A DNA stretch of 64,000 nucleotides from a virus: IMG/VR virus record IMGVR_UViG_3300021170_000008, positions 1-64,000 of that record, one strand, 5' to 3'. How positions within the stretch are numbered: the first letter of the stretch is position 1; the number at the start of each line of letters is the position of its first letter. The notes below the pieces were generated by a model, which was given only the letters and a program-made list of their open reading frames with translations, did no database searches and had not been told where the DNA came from. The translations under genes were made by a program, and so were the position numbers. Of this stretch, positions 13,026 through 53,703 are shown piece by piece.

Positions 13026-13199
13026 ACTAGTCGCCACTGCGTTCATTCTCGCCGTTTGGATCGGCGTTATCTGTCGCGCATTGGGGGTGAATCTCATCCC
13101 CATCCAACCGTAGGTGTTCCATGATGAAACGGGGCCTTTGAAGCCCCGTATACCGGACATGGTCACCCGGTACTGACGATTCAGACCAGATAGGAACAT

Positions 13200-49032: not shown

Positions 49033-49658
49033 AGCTAACGCCGACCATCTCTTTATTGATCAAACAGACGATAGACACCTGCGCGAAGTCAATCTACCAG
49101 GAACAAGAAGGCGGAATCCATAGTGAGTTAGTACCGGCTGTCTGGAATTGGATTAAAGAGCGCGTTTCGATCCAGGTTGGTCAGCGAGTGCTAGATATAG
49201 GACCCGGCAACGGACTTGCTATAAATCTATTCCTTAAGGACGGCCTTGAGCCAATAGCTCTCTGCGGGAGCGAAGCTGAATGCGCCGCGATCAACACTTC
49301 AGGTACCGGCGCTGTCGCTCTCTGGGCCGACATGCACGAGATCTCGATGTTCAGTAACTTCTTTTCGGGCATCTTTGCTCGACACGCCCTGGAACATAGT
49401 TTCGCACCGTTAACTATGCTACTCGGGATGAAGTTCGCACTTAAGCCCGCTGGCTGGATTTACGTAGAGGTCCCTGCGCCGGGCACGGCCTGTAAGCATG
49501 ACTCTGACAATCCGAACCATTTCAGCGTCCTAAGCAGGCCGATGTGGCGCAAGCTGATCGCCGACGCAGGCTTCAAGATCATCGACGAAGCGTCTATCAC
49601 CTTCACCGTCCAGGCTGGCGACGACGAGTATTATAGTTTTCTCGCAGTTCACGCTTGA
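49029..49658 (+). CDS. Class I SAM-dependent methyltransferase
   Basis: VLDIGPGNG, ADMH, RHALEH, LKP.GW.YVEVP. Confidence 0.85.
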   Translation: MKLTPTISLLIKQTIDTCAKSIYQEQEGGIHSELVPAVWNWIKERVSIQVGQRVLDIGPGNGLAINLFLKDGLEPIALCGSEAECAAINTSGTGAVALWADMHEISMFSNFFSGIFARHALEHSFAPLTMLLGMKFALKPAGWIYVEVPAPGTACKHDSDNPNHFSVLSRPMWRKLIADAGFKIIDEASITFTVQAGDDEYYSFLAVHA

Positions 49659-49707
49659 CAGCCCTTTCAAGCTCCGCCCCGAAGGCGACTATTTACTAAA
49701 ATAGCGC

Positions 49708-49736
49708 TTGACACGAAGTACGGCAAGATGTATGCT
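49708..49736 (+). promoter_or_regulatory. Sigma70-type promoter TTGACA-N17-TATGCT driving the Y RNA/Ro locus
   Basis: Predicted TSS coincides with 5' end of first Y-like RNA (~49743). Confidence 0.8.
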
Positions 49737-49742
49737 GGTTAA

Positions 49743-49865
49743 GTTCGGGTCGGCAGGTTAGCCTTATCTGGTTACCTTGGTTCGACTCCAAGACCCACGC
49801 AAGTGGGTTCTAGTAGCTCTGTTAAGGGGTTGCTAGTCGATGGCTGGCCACCCACTTATCCGGAC
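49743..49865 (+). ncRNA. Y RNA, YrlA-like (tRNA-like payload) #1
   Basis: Terminal stem GTTCGGGT/ATCCGGAC, upper stem GGTTAGCC/GGCTGGCC, T-arm CTTGG-TTCGACT-CCAAG, closed acceptor ACCCAC-GCAA-GTGGGT, D-like arm. Confidence 0.8.
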
Positions 49866-49881
49866 ACCTTTTAAGTTCTCA

Positions 49882-50015
49882 GATTCGGGTCGATAGATTA
49901 GGGTTATCTTTTATCAAAAGAGAGGTCGCTGGTTCGAGTCCAGCCGTGTCTCGCGAGGGGCGCGTAGCTCAGTTGGTAGGGCGCTAAAACGCCCTGGTTA
50001 ACACTTATCCGAGTC
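49882..50015 (+). ncRNA. yrlA: Y RNA, YrlA-like (tRNA-like payload) #2
   Basis: GATTCGGGT/ATCCGAGTC terminal stem; T-arm GCTGG-TTCGAGT-CCAGC, acceptor CGTGTCTC-GCGA-GGGGCGCG, D-arm TAGCTCAGTTGGTAGGGC in permuted order. Confidence 0.9.
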
Positions 50016-50059
50016 GATACTGCGTAGTTTGACGGTGGTTGATGTGACTTGCCCGGAAA

Positions 50060-50122
50060 CGGGCCGTGGAGCCACGGTTACCTTACTTGGGGCCACGGGT
50101 CTGTCGATCCATCTGCGTCCCG
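50060..50122 (+). ncRNA. Degenerate Y-like element in Ro 5' leader (#3)
   Basis: CGGGCCG...GGTTACCT...CGTCCCG; imperfect upper stem. Confidence 0.45.
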
Positions 50123-50141
50123 AAATAGGAGAAAAAATCAC

Positions 50142-51767
50142 ATGGCAAAGAACTATCTGGCTGGCGTTTTGAACCCGTTGTCAGTTCCACAGTCCGAGCC
50201 GCTTCCCGGCAAAGAGATGGTCGCCAATAACGCAGGCGGCTACGTGTTCTCTATCTCCACAATGAAGCAGGTAGAGCGCTTCCTGATCTTGGGATCTGAG
50301 GGCGGTTCGTATTACGTCACCGAGCGCAAAATGACGTTAGGCAACGTCAACGCCTTGAAGGCTGCGCTTGCCGCAGATGGACCTGCCGTTGTCCGGCTGA
50401 TCGTCGATATCAGCACTAAGGGACGTGCCCCCAAGAATGACTCCGCGCTGTTTGCTCTGGCATTGGCTGCGAGCCCGAAGTTTGCCGACGCTCGCACCAA
50501 CTCAATGGCGCTTGCCGCTCTGCCGCAGGTTGCACGTACTGGCACGCACTTGTTCCAGTTCGTAAACTTCGTCGAAGGCAACAAGCTCCGTGGTTGGGGC
50601 CGTGGTCTGCGTGCGGCTGTGGCTGACTGGTACCTGTCGAAGACGCCGGACAAGTTGGCGTATCAGGCTGTGAAGTACCAGAACCGCGAGCAGTGGTCGC
50701 ACCGCGATCTGCTTCGGCTGGTCCACGCGAATAATCCGGCGCTCCAGAATGTTTTCCACTGGATCGTGAAGGGTGAGATCGAAGGTCCGGTACCGGCGTT
50801 TATTGAGGCATTCGAAAAGGCCAAGGTCTCAACTGATCCGAAAGAGATCATCAGCCTGATCGAGAGCGCCAACCTGACTCGGGAAATGATCCCGACGCAA
50901 TTCCTGAACGATGTCGCTGTTTGGGACGCATTACTCCAGAAGATGCCGCTGACGGCTATGGTCCGTAACCTGGGTAAGATGACGCAGGTCGGTTTGATCA
51001 AGCCGTTGTCGGACGCATCTGCGCTTGTTAGCGGACGGCTCCGGAACCAGGAATGGCTGAACCGGGCGCGGGTCCACCCGATTGCTCTGCTGATGGCGGC
51101 TTCGACGTACGAGTCTGGCCGTGGTCTGCGTGGCAGTTTGACTTGGGAGGCCGTGAAGCCGGTTGTCGATGCGCTGGATGAAGCCTTCTATCTGGCCTTT
51201 GATAACATCGTTCCAACTGGCAAGCGGTTCTACCTTGGAATCGATGTCAGCGGATCGATGGGCATGGGAAGAGTGGCCGGTACGGCGCTTACCCCACGCG
51301 CAGGCGCGGCAGCGATGGCAATGGTGACGGCTCGCCGAGAGTCCAACTATTACATGGCAGGGTTCCAGGACAAGATGGTCCCGCTCGATATCGGGGCTCG
51401 TGACCGTCTGCCGGATGTTATCCGCAAGACCGATAATCTGCCGTTTGGAGCCACGGATTGCGCTCAGCCGATGATCGATGCGTTGAAGAAGAAGCTCGAA
51501 GCCGATGTCTTCATCGTGTACACCGACAACGAGACCTGGGCCGGTCCAAAGCACCCGACAGCAGCACTTCAGGAGTACCGGGAGAAGATGGGGATCAATT
51601 CGAAGTTGATCGTCTGTGGTTTGACGGCTACCGGCTTCTCTATCGCAGATCCGTCTGATCCTGGGATGCTTGATGTGGTTGGATTCGATACTTCTGTTCC
51701 TCAGGTAATCTCGTCGTTTGTCGGTGGAGGCGAGATGCCGGAGGAACAGGAAGTCGAAGCAGAGTAA
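50142..51767 (+). CDS. rsr: Ro60/TROVE-vWA RNA-binding protein
   Basis: NNAGG, RFLILGSEGGSYY, KY.NR..WSHRDLLRL.H, MP.TAM.RNLG.MT, DVSGSM, TDNETW; SD AGGAG before MAKN. Confidence 0.95.
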   Translation: MAKNYLAGVLNPLSVPQSEPLPGKEMVANNAGGYVFSISTMKQVERFLILGSEGGSYYVTERKMTLGNVNALKAALAADGPAVVRLIVDISTKGRAPKNDSALFALALAASPKFADARTNSMALAALPQVARTGTHLFQFVNFVEGNKLRGWGRGLRAAVADWYLSKTPDKLAYQAVKYQNREQWSHRDLLRLVHANNPALQNVFHWIVKGEIEGPVPAFIEAFEKAKVSTDPKEIISLIESANLTREMIPTQFLNDVAVWDALLQKMPLTAMVRNLGKMTQVGLIKPLSDASALVSGRLRNQEWLNRARVHPIALLMAASTYESGRGLRGSLTWEAVKPVVDALDEAFYLAFDNIVPTGKRFYLGIDVSGSMGMGRVAGTALTPRAGAAAMAMVTARRESNYYMAGFQDKMVPLDIGARDRLPDVIRKTDNLPFGATDCAQPMIDALKKKLEADVFIVYTDNETWAGPKHPTAALQEYREKMGINSKLIVCGLTATGFSIADPSDPGMLDVVGFDTSVPQVISSFVGGGEMPEEQEVEAE

Positions 51768-51771
51768 TTCA

Positions 51772-51840
51772 AATCGGCGAGCCGATAGGGGATCGTTACC
51801 TATTGCAAAAAAGCGGTCCTCGGCAACTTGTTCGCCGGTT
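51772..51840 (+). ncRNA. Minimal Y-like RNA #4
   Basis: AATCGGCGAG/TTCGCCGGTT, GGGGATCG/CGGTCCTC, TTACCT, A-rich loop, ACTTGTTC. Confidence 0.75.
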
Positions 51841-51845
51841 AATTT

Positions 51846-51991
51846 TTCTACGAGCCGGAGTGGATTCGTTATCTTACTCCAAGCCGAAAGGCAAACAATC
51901 GCTGTCGTTAAACAGCCATGCCGGGTAACTCTGGTATGCTTCACGTCAGAAATGATGTGTTGAAATGGATTCACGACACTTGTTCGTAGAG
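51846..51991 (+). ncRNA. Y-like RNA #5 with four-hairpin payload
   Basis: TTCTACGAGC/GTTCGTAGAG, GTGGATTCG/TGGATTCAC, TTATCT, four internal hairpins, CACTTGTTC. Confidence 0.75.
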
Positions 51992-51998
51992 TAATCTG

Positions 51999-52068
51999 GC
52001 TTCGGGCCGAAGTGGGATGGTTATCTTTCTGAAAAAAAATATGCCATCCCGCACATACTTGTCCGAGC
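51999..52068 (+). ncRNA. Minimal Y-like RNA #6
   Basis: GCTTCGGGC/GTCCGAGC, GTGGGATGGT/GCCATCCCGC, TTATCT, A8 loop, ACTTGTCC. Confidence 0.78.
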
Positions 52069-52093
52069 AAATCACTCCTGCTTCAGTTTCCGC

Positions 52094-52123
52094 TTGACAA
52101 TAAGTATCCATCAATGCTAAACT
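52094..52123 (+). promoter_or_regulatory. Promoter TTGACA-N18-TAAACT with extended -10 TG
   Basis: Upstream of AAA ATPase. Confidence 0.55.
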
Positions 52124-52170
52124 TGAAGCTGTCCACAATTTCCAAGATAGAAGGTTGGTACCTATACCAC

Positions 52171-53703
52171 ATGGCAATAACCAGAAAAACGAAAGAGACG
52201 CTCGTGGACGATCTCGGCCAAGACTTTGAACTCCAGTTCAAGGAAGTGGGCCTGGACCGTCACGCGAAAGGAAAGATCGCCCTGCCAGAGAATATGACTC
52301 TGTCGGAGGGGATTTACTGGCTCAAACAGAAGCAGGCAGACGAAGAAACCATGGTCGTCGTCAACGAAAAAATTGACGGCTATCCGGTCGATGTCGCCTA
52401 TTGCCTTCAGTTGGCCGTCCAGGATATGTTCGGCTTCCGGGAACTGAAGACCATCCCGCCGGAGCACTTCTTCGACAAAGAGAAGCCGCCGACATTCATG
52501 ACCGTCCCGACCGACCACAAAGGCGGAACGGTTGAAGTATTCCTGGGTAGGTTCTCGGTGCCGGGCGCAGATGGATATCTTCAGACTGGCCGCATTAACA
52601 ACGACGCTCTGATCATCCAAGGAAAGCTACGTCAGAAGAACATCCCGATCCTCCGGGCGCTGATCGCCAAGACCAAGGAAACGCTGGCCAAGCAATCGCT
52701 CTACAAGGGCAAGTCGTTCCGCGTGAAGTTCAATGAAACGCTGGACGGCAAAATTATCGACAATCCGGAATTCATCGACGTAAGCAAGGCACCAGCCCGG
52801 CTGACGTTGAATGCCGAGACGGCGGAACTGGTCCGGGCGGCTCTGTGGACCCCGATTGAGCGCAGCAAGCAAACCAAGCATTTTGGGATGCCGCTCAAGC
52901 GTGGTGTTCTACTTTACGGCCACTACGGCACCGGCAAATCCCTGACGGCGCATGAGACGGCTCATCTGTGCTCGCAGCACGGCTGGACGTTCATCTATGT
53001 TAAGGATGTCACCGACCTGCGCGAGATGTATTCGTTCGCGGCGCGGTATTCGCCTGCGGTGCTCTTCGCTGAAGACATCGATCTGGTGATCAAGCATGAA
53101 GGCGACGACGGATCTGACTCCGTTAATGAACTGAACAACGTGCTCGACGGCGTGGACAGCAAAGACAAAGACATCATTGTGGTCTTGACCACAAATCATG
53201 TGGAAAAGATCCCGGTGTCTCTGCTCCGTCCTGGCCGGTTCGACGCCATCGTCGAGTACTTCCCGCCTGACCGGGCGACGGCTGCGGCGTTGGTTGAGCA
53301 GTACGCAGGCGATGAAATCGACCGGGACGACTGGGATTGCGAAGAAGTCGGAAATGTCCTGGCCGGTAACATCCCGGCGACGATCCATGAAGTCGTCAAG
53401 CGAGCCAAGCTGTTTTCGATTGGCCGCTACCCGGCAGACTACCGGGGCAAGCTCCTGCTATCGACATCGGACATCATCAATTCGATGAAGAGTATGAGCA
53501 AGCACCTGGATCTTCTGAACACGAAGCCGTCCGAGAACCCGTCGTTCACCGAAGTCCTGGGTGGAGCAGTCGGCGAGAGTATCGCAAAGAATCTCGCCGT
53601 AGCTCTAGACGTTACAAAGCGTGGCGATAACTGGGGTGAAAAGCGCTCCAAAATAGCGGAGGAACGTATCCTGGCTCCGCTCGAAAACGGCAGCAGCAAG
53701 TAG
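52171..53703 (+). CDS. Classical-clade AAA ATPase with N-terminal extension
   Basis: RGVLLYGHYGTGKS, LFAEDID, LTTN, LLRPGRFD. Confidence 0.9.
   Translation: MAITRKTKETLVDDLGQDFELQFKEVGLDRHAKGKIALPENMTLSEGIYWLKQKQADEETMVVVNEKIDGYPVDVAYCLQLAVQDMFGFRELKTIPPEHFFDKEKPPTFMTVPTDHKGGTVEVFLGRFSVPGADGYLQTGRINNDALIIQGKLRQKNIPILRALIAKTKETLAKQSLYKGKSFRVKFNETLDGKIIDNPEFIDVSKAPARLTLNAETAELVRAALWTPIERSKQTKHFGMPLKRGVLLYGHYGTGKSLTAHETAHLCSQHGWTFIYVKDVTDLREMYSFAARYSPAVLFAEDIDLVIKHEGDDGSDSVNELNNVLDGVDSKDKDIIVVLTTNHVEKIPVSLLRPGRFDAIVEYFPPDRATAAALVEQYAGDEIDRDDWDCEEVGNVLAGNIPATIHEVVKRAKLFSIGRYPADYRGKLLLSTSDIINSMKSMSKHLDLLNTKPSENPSFTEVLGGAVGESIAKNLAVALDVTKRGDNWGEKRSKIAEERILAPLENGSSK

What the first reader, a model, noticed from the sequence alone, without database searches (positions are those of the whole stretch)
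51772..52068. Three non-tRNA-like Y RNAs downstream of Ro, including a four-hairpin payload
Seen: #5 carries four consecutive hairpins (GCC-GAAA-GGC; GCTGT-CGTTAA-ACAGC; CATGCCGGG-TAA-CTCTGGTATG; CACGTCA-GAAA-TGATGTG) and no T-loop consensus. #4 and #6 are ~70-nt minimal RNAs whose only payload is an unpaired A-rich loop (TTGCAAAAAAG; CTGAAAAAAAATAT). They are separated by only 5-7 nt, suggesting processing from a polycistronic transcript. Inference: these are Y RNA subclasses that YrlA models would miss. The minimal ones may gate the Ro cavity or titrate Ro.
Basis: partly seen in the sequence, partly recalled or inferred. Interest (0 to 1): 0.75.

Follow-up and report, generated by a model that had tools for sequence, protein, structure and literature searches.

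The report
Three hairpin Y RNAs after phage Ro60
Right after this soil phage's Ro60 gene lie three small structured RNA genes that all carry the stem Ro60 is known to grip: two are ordinary members of a widespread, mostly unannotated class of miniature Y RNAs, and the third has an unusual four-hairpin insert found nowhere else.

Summary
Window 51772-52068 holds three closed stem-loop modules on the Ro60 strand, 5 and 7 nt apart: Y4 (about 68 nt), Y5 (146 nt) and Y6 (about 71 nt). Each has the Y RNA scaffold: a terminal helix with a bulged C (5' GRGC-C-GR / 3' UUGYYC), a second helix, and UUAYC at the loop entry.

A covariance model trained only on other phages finds just four matches at E<=10 in the 106-kb genome. 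They are Y6 (56.8 bits), Y4 (40.8), Y5 (40.7) and the upstream tRNA-like Y2.

The same model family finds 161 modules beside Ro60 genes in 64 other loci. All lie on the Ro60 strand and none lies inside the gene. An unrelated 210-kb control gave no match. Pairing is 93% with heavy compensatory change.

About two thirds of the modules are minimal hairpins like Y4 and Y6. Rfam's YrlA model misses them, but its nematode stem-bulge RNA model scores them, three above threshold.

Non-tRNA-like Y RNAs are already known (YrlB, Yrn2, Thermus phage phiLo Yrl1/Yrl2, the last two shown to bind phage Ro60). Y4 and Y6 are therefore new members of a known kind. This scan has already found the class on other DNA.

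Y5's four-hairpin insert is thermodynamically solid but has no relative, so its role is open. Ro60 binding, processing and gating are inferred, not shown.

The parts
49706..49736 (+). Promoter-like site (GCTTGACAnnAAGTA ... TATGCT) in front of the whole Y1-Y2-Ro60-Y4-Y5-Y6 block
   Evidence: Sigma-70-type scan, 10 of 12 matches. The extended motif recurs exactly at 52092 and 59244, with 7 hits at <=2 mismatches against 1.06 expected.
49741..49867 (+). Y1, tRNA-like Y RNA module (context, not part of the finding)
   Evidence: Same scaffold with a compensatory U-A in the Ro-site helix, plus the T-loop GGTTCGA. R2 gives 16.5 bits with filters off.
49881..50016 (+). Y2, tRNA-like (YrlA-type) Y RNA module (context)
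   Evidence: Rfam YrlA 33.5 bits, below the threshold of 69. R3 gives 36.6 bits.
50142..51767 (+). Ro60 orthologue gene (TROVE + Ro60 vWA domain; MIDAS DVSGSM present)
   Evidence: Pfam PF05731 E 9e-49 and PF25045 E 1e-66. PDB chains 9nen, 1yvp and 2nvo match at E 1e-120 to 1e-129.
51772..51840 (+). Y4, minimal Y RNA module. It starts 4 nt after the Ro60 stop codon. Ro-site helix GAGC 51779-51782, bulged C 51783, UUACC 51796-51800, 3' ACUUGUUC 51826-51833, loop UUGCAAAAAAG.
   Evidence: Fold -28.7 kcal/mol, z -2.9. R3 gives 40.8 bits, E 1e-7 in the 106-kb genome.
51841..51845 (+). 5-nt A/U-rich spacer (AAUUU) between Y4 and Y5; candidate processing site
   Evidence: Read from the sequence. Similar spacers of 12 nt or less make up 39 of 93 inter-module gaps in related arrays. 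Processing is inferred.
51846..51991 (+). Y5, a Y RNA scaffold carrying a four-hairpin, non-tRNA-like insert. Ro-site helix GAGC 51852-51855, bulged C 51856, UUAUC 51869-51873.
   Evidence: Fold -55 kcal/mol, z -5.5. R2 gives 34.7 bits and was never trained on Y5. R3 gives 40.7 bits.
51883..51892 (+). Y5 hairpin H1, GCC-GAAA-GGC
   Evidence: Pair probability 0.9 or higher.
51901..51916 (+). Y5 hairpin H2, GCUGU-CGUUAA-ACAGC
   Evidence: Pair probability 0.8-0.9.
51917..51938 (+). Y5 hairpin H3, 9 bp with loop UAAC
   Evidence: Pair probability 0.9 or higher, except the loop-closing pair at about 0.5.
51942..51959 (+). Y5 hairpin H4, CACGUCA-GAAA-UGAUGUG
   Evidence: Pair probability 0.9 or higher.
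51992..51998 (+). 7-nt spacer (UAAUCUG) between Y5 and Y6
   Evidence: Read from the sequence and the fold boundaries.
51999..52068 (+). Y6, minimal Y RNA module. GGGC 52004-52007, bulged C 52008, exact GNCGAAG motif (GCCGAAG 52006-52012), UUAUC 52021-52025, A-rich loop.
   Evidence: R3 gives 56.8 bits, E 1e-11. Rfam nematode sbRNA RF01656 gives 27.6 bits, E 0.0075, and Deinococcus_Y_RNA 22.9 bits, both below threshold.
52092..52123 (+). Next promoter-like site (GCTTGACAATAAGTA ... TAAACT) before the AAA ATPase gene (52171-53703); marks the end of the Ro60/Y RNA block

Best explanation
Y4, Y5 and Y6 are Y RNA genes, the partner RNAs of the phage's own Ro60 protein. They are most likely transcribed from the promoter-like site at 49706 as one precursor: Y1-Y2-leader-Ro60 mRNA-Y4-Y5-Y6.

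Each module folds on its own into a terminal helix with a bulged C (5' GRGC-C-GR paired to 3' UUGYYC), a second helix, and a UUAYC motif at the loop entry. This is the architecture through which Ro60 binds Y RNAs in animals and bacteria.

Inferred steps:
- Ro60 binds each module through this helix.
- Host endonucleases cut in the 5-7 nt A/U-rich spacers, and exonucleases trim back to the protein-protected stems. This releases RNAs of about 68, 146 and 71 nt.
- The two minimal RNAs (Y4, Y6) have nothing beyond the Ro60-binding stem and a short U/C-then-A-rich loop. They would occupy Ro60's outer RNA-binding surface and so regulate or stabilise the protein without bringing a partner.
- Y5, like the tRNA-like Y1 and Y2, would use its insert to tether Ro60 to another factor, whose identity is unknown.

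Shown here: the anatomy, its family-wide conservation and covariation, and its exclusive linkage to Ro60 genes in strand and position.

Not shown: Ro60 binding, processing, stability and function.
For: 1. Scaffold match that does not rest on the window's own sequence. R3, trained on an alignment with no window sequence, finds only Y6 (56.8 bits), Y4 (40.8), Y5 (40.7) and Y2 (36.6) in the whole 106-kb genome at E<=10.
2. Independent public models hit Y6 over the stem, both below their thresholds: Rfam nematode sbRNA (27.6 bits, E 0.0075) and Deinococcus Y RNA (22.9 bits).
3. Linkage to Ro60. There are 161 matches at E<=0.1 in the window plus 64 phage or metagenome Ro60 loci. All are on the Ro60 strand and, of the 152 placed, none lies inside the ORF. 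With filters off, 71 of 71 are on that strand. 210 kb of unrelated viral DNA gave 0 matches at E<=1.
4. Covariation. 93.2% of 1681 cells are paired and 486 cells changed on both sides, against 36-49% paired when partners are slid. An unfitted MAFFT/RNAalifold alignment of six minimal modules gives 12 of 15 pairs with compensatory change. Within the window the Ro-site pair is C-G in Y4-Y6 and U-A in Y1-Y2.
5. The most invariant columns are the Ro-site G-G-C-C-G (88-99%) and U-U-A-Y-C (93-99% for U, U, A and C). Y6 carries the exact GNCGAAN0-1G motif that defines bacterial Y RNAs (PMC4201824).
6. Precedent for binding. Thermus phage phiLo Ro60 binds two hairpin Y RNA-like molecules with a CGAA motif (EMSA, cryo-EM) (PMC12135203). 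M. smegmatis YrlA and YrlB come from one precursor (PMC4201824).
7. No promoter-like or terminator-like site lies between 49736 and 52094 on this strand.
8. A soil metatranscriptome from another study holds 100%-identical contigs over 51789-52012 (Y4 to Y6) and 52020-52170.
Against: - There is no experiment on these RNAs.
- The RNA-library evidence is contigs only. It gives no strand, no ends, and DNA carry-over is not excluded.
- Y4 (GCCGAUAG) and Y5 (GCCGGAG) each depart by one base from the published GNCGAAN0-1G motif, and Y4 has UUACC instead of UUAUC.
- Y6 is below the gathering score of every Rfam Y-type family.
- Y5's insert has no homologue, so its structure rests on thermodynamics alone.
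- Most related arrays lie upstream of Ro60 (114 modules against 38 downstream). Only 4 loci have modules on both sides, so the downstream position could mean a cis role in the mRNA.
- The covariation alignments were fitted to the model, which inflates pairing somewhat.
Confidence: 0.72

Rival explanations
1. The three modules are cis-acting Ro60-binding sites in the 3' untranslated tail of the Ro60 mRNA and are not released as RNAs. Ro60 would bind its own message, either to protect its 3' end from 3'-to-5' exonucleases or to feed back on its own synthesis.
For: - Y4 begins 4 nt after the Ro60 stop codon.
- There is no terminator-like site after Y6.
- In at least six other loci the first downstream module starts about 12-22 nt after the end of the Ro60 match: L012, L080, L089, L068, L008 and L046.
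- An RNA-library contig bridges Y4-Y5-Y6.
Against: - The same scaffold occurs mostly upstream of Ro60 (114 of 152 modules) and in arrays of up to 7 or more units with alternating tRNA-like members. That fits released RNAs better than a UTR device.
- In M. smegmatis the co-transcribed modules are processed to discrete Ro-bound RNAs (PMC4201824).
- A contig cannot show a single transcript.
Confidence: 0.15
2. Y5 is a decayed tRNA-like (YrlA-type) Y RNA. It would be a duplicate of a Y1/Y2-like gene whose T and D arms have drifted, leaving four hairpins of no specific function.
For: - YrlA-type RNAs also carry up to four stem-loops (V, T, AS, D) inside the same scaffold (PMC4201824).
- Y5's H2 stem (GCUG...CAGC) matches most of the T-stem of Y2 (GCUGG...CCAGC), and a 12-nt stretch (GUAACUCUGGUA) resembles the D-arm region of Y1 (alignment).
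Against: - Local alignment of the Y5 insert to the Y1 and Y2 inserts is no better than shuffles: 14 and 12 against a mean of 12.5, sd 2.
- There is no tRNA or YrlA match at E<=10.
- All four hairpins are unusually stable (insert z -3.8, pair probabilities mostly 0.8 or higher), which argues for maintained structure rather than decay.
- The Y5 scaffold scores as well as that of Y4.
Confidence: 0.08
3. The hairpins have nothing to do with Ro60. They would be transcription terminators, RNase III sites or generic intergenic palindromes.
For: They are GC-containing stem-loops in an intergenic gap between two genes. One hairpin of Y5, read on the minus strand, matches a loose terminator pattern.
Against: - No U-tract follows any module on the + strand.
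- The scaffold occurs nowhere else in the 106-kb genome or in 210 kb of control viral DNA.
- It occurs 161 times next to Ro60 genes, always on their strand, with conserved unpaired motifs that a terminator would not need.
Confidence: 0.03

Closest known systems
Thermus phage phiLo Yrl1 / Yrl2 with phage Ro60 (NAR 2025, PMC12135203)
   Same: Phage-encoded hairpin RNAs next to a phage Ro60 gene, with a stem-bulge-stem shape and a CGAA motif in the bulge. Yrl2 is a single hairpin, like Y4 and Y6. Binding to phage Ro60 and to host PNPase was shown by EMSA and cryo-EM.
   Different: - phiLo's RNAs lie upstream of Ro60, whereas Y4-Y6 lie downstream.
- Only Y6 has the exact CGAA. Y4 has CGAU and Y5 has CGGA.
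- phiLo Ro60 is too divergent to appear among 355 phage tblastn hits or among the PDB sequence hits. No sequence comparison of the RNAs could be made.
YrlB (S. Typhimurium, M. smegmatis) and Yrn2 (D. radiodurans), the second, simpler bacterial Y RNAs (Chen et al. 2014, PMC4201824)
   Same: [quoted passage not shown] The GNCGAAN0-1G motif sits near the 5' end. In M. smegmatis they are co-transcribed with YrlA and processed.
   Different: - The published loops are described as pyrimidine-rich. Here only the 5' half of the loop is, and the 3' half is A-rich.
- M. smegmatis YrlB keeps a possible T-arm, which Y4-Y6 do not.
- No curated model of YrlB exists to test membership.
Nematode stem-bulge RNAs (Rfam RF01656 ceN72-3_ceN74-2) and vertebrate Y RNAs
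   Same: About 70-nt hairpins with the same three motifs in the same order: GGNCCGA in a bulged-C helix, UUAUC at the loop entry, and ACUUGNCC on the 3' strand (consensus printed; UUAUC in sbRNAs and vertebrate Y RNAs per PMC4726728). Sister modules in other phages pass the family's gathering score: 43.4, 39.1 and 38.1 against 38.
   Different: - Y6 itself scores 27.6, below threshold. Y4 and Y5 get no hit.
- In worms most sbRNAs were not found bound to the Ro60 orthologue, and UUAUC is tied to DNA replication (PMC4726728). Here the motif is conserved in RNAs whose only known link is Ro60.
- Common descent versus convergence is not resolved.
YrlA (Rfam RF02553), the tRNA-like bacterial and phage Y RNA
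   Same: Same Ro60-binding scaffold and same loci. Y1 and Y2 of this window are of this type.
   Different: Y4-Y6 have no T-loop or D-loop and no match to RF02553 at E<=10. Y5 has four hairpins, like YrlA's V/T/AS/D, but without significant similarity.

Membership tests
Y RNA (Ro60 partner RNA, broad sense) | Encoded beside a Ro60/Rsr gene on the same strand | tested here: met
   Ro60 is at 50142-51767 (+). Y4 starts 4 nt after its stop codon, and Y5 and Y6 follow at 5 and 7 nt.
Y RNA (Ro60 partner RNA, broad sense) | 5' and 3' ends pair into a helix with a bulged C and a conserved 5' strand (animal GGUCCGA; bacterial GNCGAAN0-1G) | tested here: met
   The helix GRGC-C-GR / UUGYYC is present in all three. 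Y6 has the exact GCCGAAG; Y4 (GCCGAUAG) and Y5 (GCCGGAG) are each one base off. Scaffold model scores are 56.8, 40.8 and 40.7 bits. Covariation is shown.
Y RNA (Ro60 partner RNA, broad sense) | Bound by Ro60 and dependent on it for accumulation | not testable with these tools
   Needs EMSA or RIP and a Ro60 deletion. The precedent in phage phiLo is literature only (PMC12135203).
Y RNA (Ro60 partner RNA, broad sense) | Accumulates as a discrete small RNA (about 60-150 nt) | tested here: inconclusive
   Identical contigs in one metatranscriptome cover 51789-52012 and 52020-52170. Contigs give no ends or strand, and DNA carry-over is possible.
YrlA (RF02553) | tRNA-like domain with T-loop and D-loop; score at or above the gathering score of 69 | tested here: not met
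   There is no RF02553 or tRNA match in 51772-52068 at E<=10. There is no GGTTCRA in Y4-Y6, and ARAGORN finds nothing.
Nematode sbRNA (RF01656) | Covariance-model score at or above the gathering score of 38 | tested here: not met
   Y6 scores 27.6 bits (E 0.0075), and Y4 and Y5 get no hit. Sister phage modules reach 43.4, 39.1 and 38.1.
Nematode sbRNA / vertebrate Y RNA | UUAUC motif at the entry to the loop | tested here: met
   UUAUC is at 51869-51873 (Y5) and 52021-52025 (Y6), and UUACC at 51796-51800 (Y4). Across 150 modules these columns are U 99%, U 99%, A 93%, U 80% (C 17%) and C 97%.
YrlB / Yrn2 type (simple hairpin Y RNA) | [quoted passage not shown] | tested here: inconclusive
   The hairpin shape is met for Y4 and Y6. 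The loop is pyrimidine-rich only in its 5' half and A-rich in its 3' half. No curated model or sequence was at hand for a direct comparison.
phiLo Yrl1/Yrl2 type | Stem-bulge-stem hairpin with CGAA in the bulge, next to a phage Ro60 gene | tested here: met
   Fully met for Y6 (CGAA 52008-52011). Y4 has CGAU and Y5 has CGGA in the same place. The position is downstream rather than upstream.
Intrinsic terminator | GC-rich hairpin followed by a U-tract on the transcribed strand | tested here: not met
   There is no + strand terminator-like site in 51772-52170, and the modules are followed by UAAUUU, UAAUCU and AAAUCAC.

The most novel reading that the evidence does not exclude
Y5's four-hairpin insert would be a new kind of effector module: a docking platform that tethers phage Ro60 to a partner other than those recruited by tRNA-like Y RNAs. 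This one phage would then field three functionally distinct Ro60 particles from a single transcript: bare/gated (Y4, Y6), tRNA-mimic (Y1, Y2) and Y5-specific. Among about 170 modules examined, no other non-tRNA insert has more than two hairpins. The hairpins are far more stable than chance.
Probability: 0.2. Interest if true: 0.6.

Novelty: new member of a known kind. Interest (0 to 1): 0.42.

Why it matters
Ro60 with its Y RNAs is a conserved RNA-surveillance particle and a human autoantigen. What the RNA modules do is still largely open, especially in phages.

This locus is a compact natural set: five Y RNAs with one shared Ro60-binding scaffold and three kinds of insert (none, tRNA-like, four hairpins), all around one Ro60 gene. 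That makes it a convenient system for asking what the insert contributes.

More broadly, minimal hairpin Y RNAs are the commonest module beside phage Ro60 genes. They are missed by the only curated bacterial model (YrlA). They also keep the UUAUC motif known from worm and human Y RNAs as strictly as the Ro60 site itself. Together this suggests the motif belongs to the Ro60 particle rather than only to animal DNA replication.

The same modules sit unannotated in cultured phages (Mycobacterium phage Cali, Gordonia phage BearBQ), so these ideas are testable at the bench.

Tried and rejected
- **Closer relatives of this phage.** I looked for them to test Y5's insert by covariation. The best Ro60 identities were 55% in IMG/VR, 56% in metagenome contigs and 47% in GenBank phages, so there are none.
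- **Exact-word searches with two Y5 hairpins in IMG/VR.** The 18-mer found nothing. The 16-mer found 24 loci, but none carries the scaffold, so these are chance matches.
- **Similarity of Y5's insert to the tRNA-like inserts of Y1 and Y2.** It is no better than shuffles.
- **A copy or antisense target of Y5's insert elsewhere in the 106-kb genome.** The best matches are 10 nt, worse than shuffled controls.
- **A hand-made descriptor scan for long-insert modules.** It was too noisy (192 hits on the + strand against 83 on the - strand), so I dropped it in favour of covariance models.
- **Coding explanations.** The overlapping ORFs (81 aa +, 379 aa - and 68 aa -) have no Pfam match.
- **Terminator reading.** There is no U-tract.
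- **General linkage of the downstream AAA ATPase to Ro60.** A homologue sits next to Ro60 in only one other locus (L007).
- **Metatranscriptome cover.** The parts of the laid stretch without RNA-library cover (49500-49760, 50077-50827, 52171-52400) cannot be read as absence of transcription.
- **phiLo comparison.** The phiLo genome did not appear in the phage collection searches, so Yrl1/Yrl2 could not be scored with my model.
- **Two reviews.** PMC10870794 and PMC6542706 are not held, so I cannot exclude that minimal phage Y RNAs or arrays are mentioned there.

Full report
**Setting.** The window is the first 64 kb of a 106,134-base IMG/VR virus record rated complete. At 50142-51767 (+) it encodes a 541-aa Ro60 orthologue.
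- Pfam matches are TROVE (E 9e-49) and the Ro60 vWA domain (E 1e-66).
- PDB matches are animal Ro60 chains 9nen and 1yvp (434.9 and 426.3 bits) and D. radiodurans Rsr 2nvo (404.6 bits).
- A promoter-like site at 49706-49736 precedes two tRNA-like Y modules: Y1 (49741-49867) and Y2 (49881-50016).
- The next promoter-like site is at 52092-52123, before an AAA ATPase gene.
- Both sites share an extended motif, GCTTGACAnnAAGTA. It occurs exactly three times in the window and seven times at two mismatches or fewer, against 1.06 expected.

**Observation.** The stretch 51772-52068 folds into three separate closed modules.
- Y4 is 51772-51840 (-28.7 kcal/mol, z -2.9).
- Y5 is 51846-51991 (-55.0 kcal/mol, z -5.5; none of 200 shuffles as stable).
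- Y6 is 51999-52068 (-25.9 kcal/mol, z -3.1).
- The spacers are 5 and 7 nt.
They lie at 51883-51892, 51901-51916, 51917-51938 and 51942-51959.
- Their pair probabilities are 0.8-0.9 or higher, apart from the pair closing the third loop (about 0.5). The insert alone folds with z -3.8.
- The only correction is that the third loop is UAAC.
- No tRNA or YrlA match falls here at E<=10, and ARAGORN finds no tRNA in the window.

**Shared scaffold.** All five modules around Ro60 share one scaffold:
- a lower helix whose inner four pairs are followed on the 5' strand by an unpaired C and then G-R;
- a second helix;
- UUAYC at the loop entry;
- on the 3' strand, ACUU followed by the complement of the four pairs.

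The fourth pair is C-G in Y4-Y6 and U-A in Y1-Y2, a compensatory change inside one genome. Y6 carries the exact GNCGAAN0-1G motif that Chen et al. (PMC4201824) use to define bacterial Y RNAs. Y4 and Y5 each differ from it by one base.

**Is it more than chance, and is it tied to Ro60?**
- I built a covariance model from Y4, Y6 and four similar hairpins found beside Ro60 genes of other uncultured phages. I then iterated it.
- The second model found 161 matches at E<=0.1 in the window plus 64 Ro60 loci from IMG/VR and metagenomes. Every one is on the Ro60 strand. Of the 152 placed, none lies inside the ORF; 114 are upstream and 38 downstream.
- As a negative control, 210 kb of unrelated viral DNA gave no match at E<=1.
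- A third model was trained on an alignment without any window sequence (113 modules); its rows were selected with R2, which had seen Y4 and Y6.
- In the whole 106-kb genome it finds only Y6 (56.8 bits, E 1e-11), Y4 (40.8), Y5 (40.7) and Y2 (36.6) at E<=10.
- Y5 was never in any training set.
- Pairing is 93.2% over 1681 cells, with 486 double changes, against 36-49% for slid partners. These alignments are fitted to the model.
- An unfitted MAFFT/RNAalifold run on six minimal modules already gave 12 of 15 pairs with compensatory change.

**What kind of Y RNA?**
- Of 150 aligned modules, 96 are minimal: 85 nt or less with no T-loop, like Y4 and Y6. About 35-37 are long with a T-loop, and only a handful are long without one.
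- A filters-off census of 17 loci gave 41 minimal, 25 tRNA-like and 5 other. One of the 5 has a variant T-loop and the rest have two-hairpin inserts.
- Y4 and Y6 are therefore typical of the commonest class. Y5 is the only four-hairpin non-tRNA insert seen.
- Rfam's YrlA model hits only tRNA-like modules, all below its threshold. The minimal ones are recognised instead by the nematode stem-bulge RNA family RF01656.
- There, three are above threshold (43.4, 39.1 and 38.1 against 38) and ten more score 31-37 bits. Y6 scores 27.6.
- The most invariant columns of the family are the Ro-site G-G-C-C-G and the U-U-A-Y-C. The latter is the motif described in sbRNAs and vertebrate Y RNAs (PMC4726728).
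- The loop consensus is U/C-rich and then A-rich, so the "unpaired A-rich loop" is a family trait and may partly pair.

**Arrays.** Tight arrays are usual: 39 of 93 inter-module gaps are 12 nt or less. Several loci have six to eight modules, such as L012, L025 and L053. Modules on both sides of Ro60 are rare (4 loci). In at least six other loci a module follows Ro60 within about 12-22 nt of the end of the match.

**Cultured phages.** They carry the same unannotated modules just upstream of Ro60. Gordonia phage BearBQ has one tRNA-like and one minimal module. Mycobacterium phage Cali has three.

**Expression.** A soil metatranscriptome from a different study holds 100%-identical contigs over 49761-50076, 50828-51784, 51789-52012 and 52020-52170. 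One contig bridges Y4-Y5-Y6. Contigs show neither strand nor ends and do not exclude DNA, so this is only a hint.

**Y5's insert.**
- It has no significant similarity to the Y1 or Y2 inserts.
- It has no relative in IMG/VR by exact words.
- It has no copy or antisense target in the phage genome.
- No closer relative of the phage was found: the best Ro60 identities are 55-56% in the contig collections and 47% in GenBank phages.
- Its structure therefore rests on thermodynamics alone.

**Mechanism.**
- Best reading (0.72): co-transcribed, Ro60-bound, processed Y RNAs. The minimal ones act as bare occupants or regulators of Ro60, and Y5 is a tether to an unknown partner.
- The anatomy, conservation and linkage are shown here. 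Binding, processing and function are inferred from phiLo (PMC12135203), M. smegmatis and D. radiodurans (PMC4201824).
- Rivals: cis-acting Ro60 sites in the mRNA 3' tail (0.15), Y5 as a decayed tRNA mimic (0.08), and Ro60-unrelated hairpins (0.03).

**Novelty.** Non-tRNA-like Y RNAs, phage Y RNA hairpins that bind phage Ro60, and processing from a common precursor are all published. Y4 and Y6 are new members of a known kind. Earlier follow-ups in this scan reached the same view of the minimal class on other genomes. I arrived at it independently first. Y5 is a singleton variant whose significance is open.

Noticed in passing
window 13122-13190 (+): Type II hammerhead ribozyme, Rfam RF02276 at 40.5 bits against a gathering score of 37.
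   Followed up: no
window 49706, 52092, 59244 (+): A recurrent extended promoter-like motif, GCTTGACAnnAAGTA. It occurs exactly three times and seven times at <=2 mismatches against 1.06 expected. It is probably this phage's own promoter type.
   Followed up: partly
L128:1597-1673, 1695-1842, 1873-1946 (Mycobacterium phage Cali) and L127:1700-1835, 1850-1921 (Gordonia phage BearBQ): Cultured phages carry unannotated Y RNA modules of the same scaffold directly upstream of their annotated Ro-like genes, including minimal ones. These are good bench systems.
   Followed up: partly
L129:902-1047 (Streptomyces phage Blueeyedbeauty): A scaffold match (26.9 bits) encloses the annotated tRNA-His (908-980). 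Either a Y-type stem is wrapped around a tRNA-shaped core, or a tRNA-like Y RNA has been annotated as a tRNA.
   Followed up: no
L003:2737-2856 and L029:1098-1218: Rfam tRNA matches about 120 nt long (44.9 and 45.5 bits) lie immediately next to minimal Y modules. They look like tRNA-shaped RNAs with a large insertion.
   Followed up: no
L012:6290-7294, L040:3240-4069, L032:3269-3745: Several phage Ro60/Y RNA loci are followed within 1-2 kb by arrays of ordinary tRNA genes on the same strand. This window has no tRNA gene at all.
   Followed up: no
window 52171-53703 (+) and L007:979-2280: The AAA ATPase after the Y RNA block has a 36%-identical homologue next to the Ro60/Y array of one other phage only. 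No general linkage was seen within the flanks held.
   Followed up: partly
window 50142-51767 (+): The phage Ro60 scores slightly higher against animal Ro60 chains (9nen 434.9 bits, 1yvp 426.3) than against D. radiodurans Rsr (2nvo 404.6).
   Followed up: no
The scaffold models give it at most 5.6 bits, so it is not a regular module. Another report of this scan covers it.
   Followed up: no
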